The notes under the pieces are model-generated. The model did not search any database and had not been told where the DNA came from. It saw nothing but the letters and a program-made list of their open reading frames with translations. Positions 40,694-43,390 of a DNA stretch of 64,000 nt are shown here, piece after piece (within the stretch, counting starts at the first letter, position 1; each line of letters starts with the position of its first letter). Source of the stretch: Spirochaetia bacterium (lineage in GTDB: Bacteria; Spirochaetota; Spirochaetia; SZUA-6; Bin103); the NCBI GenBank assembly GCA_965203055.1, contig OZ241863.1, positions 4,416,001-4,480,000 on the forward strand, read 5' to 3'. The position numbers and the translations under genes were made by a program.

Positions 40694-43390
40694 GTCTACC
40701 TCCCTGATCAGATAGTTCCTTACCCGGAGGGGCCGCCCGAGTACGCCGCTCTCTCCGCAGAGCCAAGCGCTGAGAATACCGCGATAACAATACTCGTGGT
40801 TATCCGTGAGCCGCCATACCTGCTCAGTACGTCGCTGACTCCTGCCGCCTCCATCACGGCGCGAACCGGATCGCTGGCGACTATCCCGGTACCAGGAGAG
40901 GCGGGCTCCAGCAGCACTGTGGTATCGCTGTATGAGCCCTTCATGGCGTGAGAGATTGTGTTTCCACGGCGGGGCACGGGTATCATCCTGCGTCGTGCGC
41001 GCTCGATACTCTTGCGGACAGCGTCGTTAGTGTCGTCCGACCTTCCGAATCCGTAACCGACGCGTCCCCCGCGATCGCCAACTACGACCAACGTGAATAT
41101 CACATACCGCGGACTGCCACTCGCGGTCTCCGTGGTGCGCCTCCAATCCACCAGCTTCGCAAGCCATCTGTCATCTTCGATGTTGCCCGAGGAAAGGATG
41201 TTGCCGCCGCGAAGCGCTGGGGGCGCCAGCAGTGAGCGTGCCTCGCGTCGTCTTGCAACGACAGGAGTCGCCACCGAACCGGATCTAATCCGCACCAAGT
41301 CAATCGCGTCCTGCGGATGACTTCGTGGACGTAGTCGAATAACGTTGTGCCTTCCGGGTTCGGCCAACGACGCGAAGGGCCTGCGCCATAGTCCAAGCTT
41401 ATCGAAGGGGTTCGGGATGATGTGACCCTTGAAGTCGATATCGGTCGGCTGTTCGGGACAGCGTACGATGATATGCGAAGCAGATTTATCTTGAGGGACG
41501 TCCAGTTCCGTACCAAGCAGCAAGGGATATTCCTTCCCCGTACTAGTGCGGACGAATATGGAGATTCCTGGAGGCGGGAATGTGAACGAGACAACTCTCC
41601 GGTCAACTGAGAAGGCAAGTATAGCGCGCAGATATCGCGCATCCTTTTGCAAGCTAAGCCGTCCGTCAGCCGTCCTTGTCAAGTGCTTAAGATGTGTCTT
41701 TGCAAGGTTTTCCGGAATCGATTCCGCATCGAACACAGCTTGGTCACGCAAGCCTCTGAGACTTGGCCAGTACCAGAATCCGTACCGATTCAGCGCCCGA
41801 TTCTGACTCTTGACGTGTAACGAAATCCTTACCTTACCGAACGGTCCGCGTGTGGGGAGGTTCAGTGGTGCAACAAGGTCTCCGCTGGGCCGTATGTGTA
41901 CGGGAATACGTGATATGAAGTGCATGCCGTATTCCAATTTGATCTCGAGGTTGTCGCTCAGGCCACTCACGTCTCCCCTCAGAACAACGGTACGGGGTTC
42001 TGCCAGAAGCAATCCGTCGGCGTGGCGTGCGACTCTGCAGCCGTCGACTTCCAGGTGAAGGCGGGGATCAACCTGAGCATTTAAGCAGGCGTCTCCTTGA
42101 GAAATGCACAAATCCTTCGAGCTCTCAGGATACAAGACGTACGCGTTCTGGCCAAGTTGATATGCGTCCTCTCCGTTGACCCGAAATAGCCGCATCGACA
42201 CCAGAGAGATCGAACCGGCGGGAATGCGCGGTACGCTGCGTGCTTGATGATTCAGCACTCCTTTGAGCCTGCCGGAGTCGCCATCGAACAGGAGAATGTC
42301 GGCTTGTGGATCTTTGAACAGCGGCAGGGACTGCCAGTTATTTCGCTCAGTGCTAGCCTGCCAGCGAACGCAACGCGGCCAGGGAGGTGACAAGACTGTG
42401 CCCTCTTGTGGATTCAAGGGTCTCGGCGGCTGGCTGGAATTGATGTCGACTTCAAGCGATTGCCCACGAGGCGCGGCTTCAATGCACAGCTCGCCGTCGC
42501 GGAACGTCAAGCAGGGTGGACGAGGCGCCGGACCATGTCCCCCGCTCAGTTCTTTGATTTCGTGGAGGACCCGGCGTTCGAAGTCGGTTGTGGGTTGGTC
42601 CCATTCTCGGAGTCGAACGTAGACGGTAGCGTGATAGCCGGTCGAATCCTCGCCAAGTATTTTGCGCAGCCTTGTCAAGTGTGTCGGAACGTGCTCCATC
42701 GCCTGCTCTTCCCATGACTTGACTTCAGCGGTGTCCTCGCAATCCGGCAGACCGGATTTTCGTTCGACACGCAGGAACGCGTCCACAAGCGGCCTGATCT
42801 GGCTGTGGGGAACACCAGCCTGAAACAGATAGTCGCCAATCAAGTCCTGCGTGCCGGGATACTTCGGCGGGAGTATGAGGCCATGTTCATTGCAGGCGCG
42901 TCGAAATCGATCATTGAAAGAGTCGCGGCGGTTCGTCGAGATCTCCATGCCGAGTCGGTGGGAGATCGGACCATAGCTCGCGTGGTCGGTATCCGGGCCG
43001 TATTGCTCCGCAAGAGTGGTTGCGACGGCCCAGACTGCGAGGAGGGGGTATTGTACGGTCACGTAATCAAGGAAGTTATCTGTTACTCCCCCGATTTCGG
43101 CTACTAGCGCGTGCTCGACGTCGCTGCGCATCGGCTCCGGTATGTCGTGGTGACCGATGAAGGGCGATCCATGTTCCCGTGCCAAGTGCCTTCGCAGTCT
43201 CTGTTCGGCTCCGGCGAGGGCCGCCATCCGCATCTCGTAGCTGGTTGGCATCGGTGGTATTGACTGTCCCGACCATGAGCCACTGGCGTCGTGGCCAAGT
43301 GACATTACCATAGTATTGATCGCTTTCCGGCGCAACCGGCGGTCAGCCGCCGCAGGCGGCAGATGTCCCGGTGTGCGCCGCACTGGTTGT
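35796..43390. other. Lower-GC two-gene insert splitting the suf operon
   Basis: Antisense orientation and weaker GC3 bias than the flanking suf genes; lies between sufC and sufD; no integrase or transposase inside. Confidence 0.75.
40720..43311 (-). CDS. Large helicase-partner protein (DruH-like position) with a C-terminal diverged ribosomal protein uS5 domain; start uncertain (43383, 43311 or 43251)
   Basis: Single open frame immediately upstream of the helicase; last ~140 aa align by eye with uS5 (VVVGD..[8 protein letters not shown]...A.RKS.E.ARR.M...T..H..KG.....V.[9 protein letters not shown].A...RAV.EAAGV.DVL...GS). Confidence 0.85.
   Translation of the reverse strand: [863 protein letters not shown]

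What the first reader, a model, noticed from the sequence alone, without database searches (positions are those of the whole stretch)
40720..41170. Diverged ribosomal protein uS5 fused to the C-terminus of a defence-type helicase partner
Seen: the last ~140 aa of the ~860-aa ORF ([58 protein letters not shown]...TISHAMKG...[37 protein letters not shown]) are colinear with both domains of uS5, in frame, after a low-complexity linker and far from any ribosomal operon. Known: uS5 carries a basic K..KGGR loop that contacts 16S rRNA, plus conserved GIIAGG and GS.NP.N motifs. Here these read ETASGSP, GIVASD and GSRITTS while the structural core is kept. Inference: this is a captured host protein that has lost normal ribosome assembly function. 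It may serve as an integrated decoy or sensor for phage proteins that target the ribosome, or as a ribosome/RNA tether that triggers the downstream helicase. The GYGFG...RKSIE wording recalls spirochaete-type S5, so capture may have been from the host lineage. I know of no described anti-phage system with an S5 domain.
Basis: partly seen in the sequence, partly recalled or inferred. Interest (0 to 1): 0.92.

Follow-up and report, generated by a model that had tools for sequence, protein, structure and literature searches.

The report
Defence helicase partner with ribosomal tail
A sponge-associated bacterium carries an inserted two-gene anti-virus-type cassette whose partner protein has swapped its usual end for a copy of the host's own ribosomal protein S5, which stays folded but has lost its ribosome-binding motifs and may act as bait or sensor.

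Summary
The fusion is real. Both uS5 Pfam domains end an ~840-aa ORF, contigs in 4 of 4 independent runs bridge the junction, and 13 other protein clusters carry it. The ORF precedes a DruE-like helicase in a cassette inserted between sufC and sufD, which are adjacent in 23 of 23 relatives. Wider relatives are ~1090-aa partners with a predicted DruH-like layout. One clade lost the ~430-aa C-terminal domain and carries variable tails: uS5, a bS1-like domain, a basic tail or Ig repeats. Its helicases lack the PLD nuclease. The uS5 came from the host genus (14 of 14). It is under relaxed purifying selection (dN/dS ~0.46 vs 0.09): the fold core is kept and the conserved basic motifs are lost. Best reading: a Druantia-III-like system whose swappable tail is a bait or sensor (0.4). 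Rivals: a folded cap (0.27), a nucleic-acid binder (0.2). Function is untested. The scan noted this family before in another genome (e1-6846619).

The parts
40720..43248 (-). Partner gene, DruH-like scaffold with uS5 tail (from M46; the longest ORF starts at GTG 43383, and the true start, M46 or M53, is not fixed)
42544..43248 (-). N-terminal all-helical domain (model residues 1-235)
   Evidence: AlphaFold2 DSSP; same layout in full-length relative P0017
41287..42513 (-). Array of Ig/Fn3-like beta-sandwich domains (model residues 246-654); family profile A1 matches up to profile position 666 of 1088 and stops
   Evidence: Ig-like matches Z 7-8, middling
41182..41277 (-). Disordered linker (pLDDT <50), the point where the ancestral C-terminal domain was replaced
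   Evidence: bridged in 4 of 4 runs
40753..41169 (-). Captured uS5, both subdomains (Pfam PF00333 at 40972-41157, PF03719 at 40753-40938)
40698..40705 (-). Shine-Dalgarno-like site 4 nt before the helicase ATG, 14 nt after the partner's stop: an operon arrangement
   Evidence: read directly from the sequence
35792..40693 (-). 1633-aa YprA/DruE-like SF2 helicase with intact Walker A, DEIH and motif VI, ending at the MZB (DUF1998) domain; no PLD tail
   Evidence: (DruE1 6e-167, DruE3 1.6e-163)
43393..43422 (+). Sigma-70-like promoter match facing sufD (9 of 12); could restore read-through to the downstream suf genes (inference)
   Evidence: 1 found; shuffle mean 0.0, sd 0.1
35756..43568 (.). Whole insertion between sufC (ends 35755) and sufD (ORF starts 43569), antisense to suf; GC 57-65% vs 68.8% genome; no integrase and no convincing terminal repeats

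Best explanation
This is a Druantia-III-like two-gene defence cassette in which the C-terminal end of the DruH-like partner has become a swappable input module. Shown by sequence analysis: an ancestor in sponge-associated spirochaetes lost the partner's ~430-aa helical C-terminal domain, its helicase lost the PLD nuclease, and the free end was filled by a copy of the host's rpsE. Selection kept the uS5 fold and shed the motifs that uS5 uses on 16S rRNA (their rRNA role is recalled), so it should not enter ribosomes. Inferred: the folded uS5 acts as an integrated bait. A phage or plasmid protein that normally grabs the small ribosomal subunit binds it, and the partner then licenses the helicase to load on single-stranded invader DNA and unwind 3'-5', stalling replication without a nuclease of its own. 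The bait step, its ligand, the partner-helicase contact and the anti-phage outcome are all untested.
For: Operon and family: the partner lies directly upstream of the helicase in 20 of the 21 closest loci (the 21st starts at its contig end) and in 0 of the 59 more distant ones. Full-length relatives fold as helical / Ig array / helical, the layout described for DruH (10.64898/2026.05.12.722862 section 9; 10.64898/2026.05.13.724313 passages). Their nearest Atlas clusters are the DruH family STY4851/ECs_5259 at 0.92 (weak; family identity checked). The lost domain is the one that binds ssDNA and docks on DruE in those two papers, so the tail sits in the sensing position. Swappable slot: the domain-less clade (100; 91/100) holds uS5, basic, Ig-repeat and bS1-like tails. 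The last has one hit in this genome, its rpsA (E 2.1e-10), so a second ribosomal protein was captured. Selection: dN/dS 0.46 (0.27-0.68) on the fused branch. 21 invariant columns across 8 lineages against 6.0-8.3 in neutral simulations (0 of 7500 reached 21). Gly/Pro and hydrophobic columns kept above neutral (P<=0.007); conserved basic residues kept at only 31%. 26 of 26 full-length near-copies keep the tail, with no gapped column in it. A PLD-less DruE can defend: M. smegmatis DruE, 1667 aa (PMC13316683, passages).
Against: No ligand, binding or phenotype was tested. A bait should stay host-like, yet the tails are only 40-53% identical to host rpsE and 43% to each other. Basic tails (4 proteins) and Ig-repeat tails (3) match no host protein, so the slot tolerates tails that are not obvious baits. 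In lab-studied III-A systems, deleting DruH's C-terminal part or mutating DruE's PLD abolishes defence (722862 section 9; 724313 section 8), and this cassette lacks both; no PLD-tail homologue was found among 36,896 six-frame ORFs of the genome. No DruH model recognises the family. One assembly appears to have the gene split (P0179 + P0175). Seven relatives keep only a ~160-aa piece with no helicase beside it where checked.
Confidence: 0.4

Rival explanations
1. Folded cap: after the C-terminal domain was lost, any small stable domain protects or stabilises the new end. The uS5 is selected only to fold and carries no signal.
For: What is conserved is mostly Gly/Pro/hydrophobic core. dN/dS is five times that of real rpsE. 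The tail diverges about 4.5 times faster than the N-terminal part on deep branches (path P0001-P0009 about 3.2 vs 0.70 changes per column). Unrelated tails fill the same slot.
Against: A bare cap does not explain why two of four tail types are ribosomal proteins, or why both uS5 subdomains persist behind a 32-aa disordered linker that already separates them from the scaffold. Among near-copies the tail varies no more than the scaffold (pi 0.049 vs 0.052 and 0.073). Short basic tails show that a folded cap is not required.
Confidence: 0.27
2. Replacement nucleic-acid binder: the uS5 fold was recruited to restore the single-strand binding lost with the C-terminal domain, possibly shifting the sensor towards RNA or RNA:DNA hybrids.
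For: The DruH ssDNA site is formed by Ig5 plus the C-terminal domain (722862 section 9). uS5, an S1-type OB fold and an Arg-rich tail are all plausible nucleic-acid binders (established knowledge). The tails stay net positive, +5 to +12.
Against: The conserved basic residues are the least retained class (31%), and net charge fell from +18 in the host protein (canonical mean 13, sd 3). The bS1 piece is an N-terminal repeat (TIGR00717 positions 90-136), recalled as the protein-binding half of S1.
Confidence: 0.2
3. Ribosome tether or guard: the tail joins 30S particles or contacts S4/S8 and reports ribosome damage to the helicase.
For: Both subdomains are kept with the uS5 fold, and the donor is the host's own rpsE.
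Against: Loop 2, the K-A-N-Y-V stretch and the S-x-N-x-x-N stretch are the least conserved segments (15-28% host-identical). The score is below the rpsE equivalog cut-off. An intact rpsE is present.
Confidence: 0.07
4. Neutral debris: a decaying defence cassette that picked up an rpsE fragment by chance, or an assembly chimera.
For: Both genes lack domains essential in III-A. One assembly appears split, and orphan pieces exist in 7 of 23 relatives.
Against: The junction is bridged in 4 of 4 runs. dN/dS is below 1 in 299 of 300 bootstraps. Stop-free tails in all 8 lineages arose in at most 1 of 2500 neutral simulations per setting (tails were ascertained as S5-positive, which inflates this test). 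Helicase motifs are invariant in 22 aligned relatives.
Confidence: 0.06

Closest known systems
Druantia type III-A (DruH-DruE of E. coli and P. aeruginosa; PDB 9tu7 DruE, 9tud DruH; preprints 10.64898/2026.05.12.722862, .05.13.724758, .05.13.724313, .05.12.724681)
   Same: Two genes, large partner before a YprA-like helicase. The helicase matches DruE models and 9tu7 (E 5.6e-65). Full-length relatives have a ~1090-aa partner with helical / Ig / helical layout and a PLD-like helicase tail that aligns with E. coli DruE.
   Different: No sequence match of the partner family to DruH. This copy lacks the partner's C-terminal helical domain and both PLD domains, and carries uS5 instead.
Nuclease-less Druantia III-like / III-B branch (Bell et al., 10.1101/2025.09.15.676423; M. 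smegmatis MSMEG_1253/1254, PMC13316683)
   Same: The helicase ends at DUF1998 with no nuclease (1633 vs 1667 aa); two-gene layout.
   Different: M. smegmatis DruH is full length (1132 aa). Here PLD loss looks secondary inside a family that mostly has it (88 of the 109 more distant listed helicases, P0209-P0317, exceed 1900 aa). The term 'ribosom' occurs 0 times in Bell et al.'s main text; its supplements were not seen.
Bacterial uS5 (RpsE, TIGR01021)
   Same: Both Pfam domains, same fold, 51% identity to the host copy; best solved match is spirochaete uS5 8fmw_E.
   Different: Fused behind ~690 aa, outside any ribosomal operon, signature motifs lost, dN/dS five times higher.
Plant NLR integrated decoys (recalled, no call); ribosomal L12/ClpS and S1-like domains in bacterial vWA-MoxR conflict systems (PMC7159879, passages)
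   Same: A host-type domain is grafted onto an immune scaffold at a variable position.
   Different: Unrelated scaffolds. The passages read give no uS5 fusion and no helicase partner, and do not call these domains decoys.

Membership tests
Druantia type III | Two-gene operon, large partner upstream of the helicase | tested here: met
   20 of 21 closest loci; same order in CP023017.1
Druantia type III | DruE: YprA-like SF2 helicase with MZB/DUF1998 | tested here: met
Druantia type III-A | Tandem PLD-like domains at the DruE C-terminus | tested here: not met
   The protein ends at residue 1633; a tail profile from 88 long relatives finds nothing in it or in the genome
Druantia type III | Partner recognised as DruH by sequence (PADLOC DruH3, NF038336) | tested here: not met
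   0 hits for the window protein and the relatives scanned; positive controls hit; profile A1 misses 9tud and E. coli DruH
Druantia type III | DruH architecture: helical N-domain plus Ig-like array | tested here: met
   Predicted only; Atlas neighbours are the DruH family, weak
Druantia type III | DruH C-terminal helical domain (ssDNA site, DruE docking) | tested here: not met
   Present in full-length relatives; absent here, where profile A1 stops at 666 of 1088
Druantia type III | Structural superposition on solved DruH | tested here: inconclusive
   No DruH chain was listed in either fold search; whether 9tud is in those libraries is unknown
Druantia type III | Partner-helicase complex | not tested
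Druantia type III | Anti-phage activity needing both genes | not testable with these tools
   needs plaque assays
uS5 / RpsE | Both Pfam subdomains and the uS5 fold | tested here: met
uS5 / RpsE | TIGR01021 equivalog cut-off (164.05 bits) | tested here: not met
   123.7 bits whole protein, 127 tail alone
uS5 / RpsE | Conserved loop-2 KGGR, GIIAGG and GSxNxxN motifs | tested here: not met
uS5 / RpsE | Location in the ribosomal protein operon | tested here: not met
   The real rpsE lies at G000 ~749 kb among ribosomal genes; this copy lies at ~4457 kb
uS5 / RpsE | Incorporation into 30S | not testable with these tools
   needs co-sedimentation

The most novel reading that the evidence does not exclude
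The pieces are stripped of ribosome function and used as interchangeable baits for phage takeover proteins, so the catalogue of tails would list ribosomal surfaces that phages attack.
Probability: 0.3. Interest if true: 0.92.

Novelty: new variant of a known kind. Interest (0 to 1): 0.74.

Why it matters
It is a clear case of a core ribosomal protein captured by a defence-type protein, traceable to the host genus and kept by selection for fold while its conserved motifs decay. If the tail is a bait, it shows that bacteria use integrated decoys as plant NLRs do, and points to phage proteins that target uS5 and bS1. Even otherwise, a Druantia-like clade that persists without the DruH C-terminal domain and without the PLD nuclease tests the current, partly conflicting models of what DruH does (ssDNA/ATP sensor or exonuclease) and of whether unwinding alone can defend.

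Tried and rejected
Chimera: rejected. Singleton: rejected. Donor outside the host family: not supported. Tail exchange among S5 alleles (P0007 sits differently in the two trees): not supported, p-AU 0.31. Single versus repeated S5 capture: unresolved; one S5 clade of scaffolds is neither shown nor rejected (p-AU 0.42), and the fused S5 clade (96/95; 90/94) has long branches. Positive selection on the loops: not claimed; falling below a simulation tuned to the mean divergence is expected if the core is constrained, and four of the seven segments were chosen after seeing the alignment. The variant table was cut (40 rows shown, 263 not), so no pN/pS was computed. No RNA holder listed: no evidence on expression either way. 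Basic tails as bL34 or eL13: no Pfam hit at E<=10 and no L34-like pattern hit in the genome. Terminal repeats or target duplication: none convincing. A trans-acting PLD tail in the genome: none found. DruH not listed in fold searches. The Atlas gave no usable hit for the window protein with S5 families skipped. Literature searches with no report of this fusion: (open-licence PMC and bioRxiv only; preprint supplements not seen).
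Full report
Observation. The minus-strand ORF 40720-43383 ends in both uS5 Pfam domains (743-804, E 7.3e-14; 816-877, E 1.3e-16), below the rpsE equivalog cut-off. 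The genome has two S5 matches: an intact rpsE at ~749 kb among ribosomal genes, and this one. They are 51% identical over 136 aa. AlphaFold2 (43-row alignment including canonical S5 rows, mean pLDDT 87.6, pTM 0.73) gives a helical N-domain, a beta-sandwich array, a 32-aa disordered linker and a uS5 fold (Z 22.4 to spirochaete uS5 8fmw_E). Contigs in 4 of 4 laid runs, from four studies, cross the junction, and one spans 40458-43796 into sufD. The named holders are sponge and marine metagenomes. No RNA holder was listed, which says nothing on expression.

Setting. The ORF is followed 26 nt later, behind a Shine-Dalgarno-like site, by a 1633-aa helicase that matches DruE models (6e-167) and ends at the MZB domain. 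The pair lies antisense between sufC and sufD at 57-65% GC against 68.8% for the genome. sufC and sufD are adjacent in 23 of 23 other genomes of the family. None of those 23 gave a full partner gene or a close helicase (best matches 27-45% over parts); several are incomplete. No integrase or terminal repeat was seen. The host is a spirochaete by inference: its rpsE best matches 8fmw_E.

The partner family. Searching residues 40-700 gave 11 proteins, of which 10 (61-94% identical) carry both S5 domains. The representative search added three more fusions and many ~1050-1150-aa proteins without S5, so there are 14 fused sequences with the window's own. A full-length member folds at pLDDT 89 into helical / Ig-like array / helical (Ig and Fn3 proteins top the fold search). 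That is the layout reported for DruH (10.64898/2026.05.12.722862 section 9; 10.64898/2026.05.13.724758 section 11; 10.64898/2026.05.13.724313 passages). Its nearest Atlas clusters are the DruH family (0.92, but with a low recognition value, so weak). No DruH sequence model or DruH sequence matches the family, while controls do. A partner of this family lies directly upstream of the helicase in 20 of the 21 closest loci and in 0 of the next 59. The window protein matches the family profile only to position 666 of 1088, so the S5 stands where the C-terminal helical domain was.

A clade with swappable tails. On the shared N-terminal part, all proteins lacking that domain form one clade (100; 91/100). 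In one search its 18 rows are 10 uS5 tails, 4 basic tails, 3 Ig-repeat tails and 1 tail (P0024) whose only hit in this genome is rpsA (E 2.1e-10; rpsA confirmed and P0024 weakly matched to S1 models; Pfam S1 only E 0.25). The ten closest helicases (65-82%) all lack the PLD-like tail that 88 of the 109 more distant listed ones are long enough to carry. Five of them share a longest-contig length with a clade partner (two S5, the bS1-like, one basic, one fragment), which I take as co-location by inference. PLD loss also occurs beside full-length partners (L060, L062-L064), so the two losses are not strictly tied. An earlier AI note (e1-6846619) describes the same kind of cassette with S5, S17, omega and eL13-like tails. 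I confirmed S5 only.

Origin of the S5. A profile of the fusions scores this genome's rpsE at 171.5 bits against at most 154.7 in 400 sampled genomes of the phylum. All 14 fused tails score best against rpsE of the host genus among 104 canonical S5. In trees the fused tails fall with the host family (99/96; 100/96), with long-branch warnings. One capture or two is unresolved.

Selection. On the branch to the window's tail dS is about 0.78 and dN about 0.36, so dN/dS is 0.46 (bootstrap 0.27-0.68) against 0.09 among 11 genus rpsE genes (simple NG86 counts, one fused gene, GC3 shifted from 0.91 to 0.66). Across 8 lineages, 21 of 138 columns are invariant, against means of 6.0-8.3 in 3 x 2500 neutral simulations at similar divergence, none of which reached 21. 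Conserved Gly/Pro are kept at 76% and hydrophobic columns at 88% (P<=0.007). Conserved basic residues are kept at 31%, and loop 2 is 25% host-identical. Net charge is +5 to +12 against +18. Among 26 near-copies the tail is always present and no more variable than the scaffold; one further assembly appears split. So the fold is under selection and the ribosomal signature is not.

Mechanism. In studied systems DruE unwinds 3'-5' from exposed ssDNA (724758 abstract and introduction), DruH binds ssDNA at Ig5 plus the C-terminal domain (722862 section 9), and that domain docks on DruE while the N-domain may be an exonuclease (724313 passages). The tail therefore occupies the sensing and docking position. 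I favour an integrated bait (0.4): two of four tail types are ribosomal proteins, and the fold is kept while the motifs recalled as rRNA contacts are shed. Against it, the tails are only 40-53% host-identical, other tails are not host-derived, and III-A systems die without this domain or the PLD (722862 section 9; 724313 section 8). A PLD-less DruE does work in M. smegmatis (PMC13316683 passages), and Bell et al. note a III-like branch mostly without nuclease (10.1101/2025.09.15.676423 passages). A folded cap (0.27), a replacement nucleic-acid binder (0.2), a ribosome tether (0.07) and debris (0.06) are the rivals. Binding of the two proteins could not be modelled.

Novelty. It works like Druantia III but is not filed as a member of III-A: the DruH sequence, C-terminal domain and PLD tests were not met. 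Nine literature searches found no uS5 fusion in a defence protein; the library omits most subscription papers, and preprint supplements were not seen. The nearest printed precedent I read is L12/ClpS and S1-like domains in vWA-MoxR systems (PMC7159879 passages; PMC8195603 passages and 10.64898/2026.05.12.724681 passages added nothing on this). Verdict: a real, selected, host-derived uS5 in the variable slot of a reduced Druantia-III-like cassette; a new variant of a known kind, function untested, interest 0.74.

Noticed in passing
P0024 (658 aa, relative of the partner): Its tail resembles an N-terminal repeat of ribosomal protein bS1; its only hit in this genome is rpsA at G000:C1:1586618-1588393 (E 2.1e-10). 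It also has an unrelated ~115-aa N-terminus.
   Followed up: partly
P0145 (580 aa): An unrelated ~400-aa protein with no Pfam match ends in uS5 with an altered loop 2; its S5 is closest to non-spirochaete S5: a second, independent S5 fusion.
   Followed up: partly
L174:3836-12169 (G000:C1 about 2,560,800-2,569,200): The same genome holds a canonical DruH3 (PADLOC E 2.4e-79) followed by a DruE-like helicase split over two overlapping frames.
   Followed up: partly
L173:7094-13072 (G000:C1 about 2,024,100-2,030,100): A third YprA-like helicase ORF of about 1990 aa; not classified.
   Followed up: no
L004-L010, L175, L176: Seven genomes of the sister genus keep a lone ~160-aa Ig-like piece of the partner family, closest to the repeat in the Ig-repeat tails; no helicase match in the loci checked.
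   Followed up: partly
window 29301-32840 (-): A 1179-aa SNF2-type helicase ORF, by its motifs, just upstream of the suf operon; possibly part of another defence locus.
   Followed up: no
window 43432-43444: A perfect 6-bp inverted repeat around one base, between the cassette start and sufD, next to the promoter-like match; a possible operator (read).
   Followed up: no
L062-L064: PLD-less helicases with full-length partners are followed by a ~2050-aa ORF of unknown kind in three alphaproteobacterial loci.
   Followed up: no
L057:533-11356: A truncated partner homologue on a Sinorhizobium plasmid lies among IS elements near TIR and SIR2 genes, a defence-island setting.
   Followed up: no
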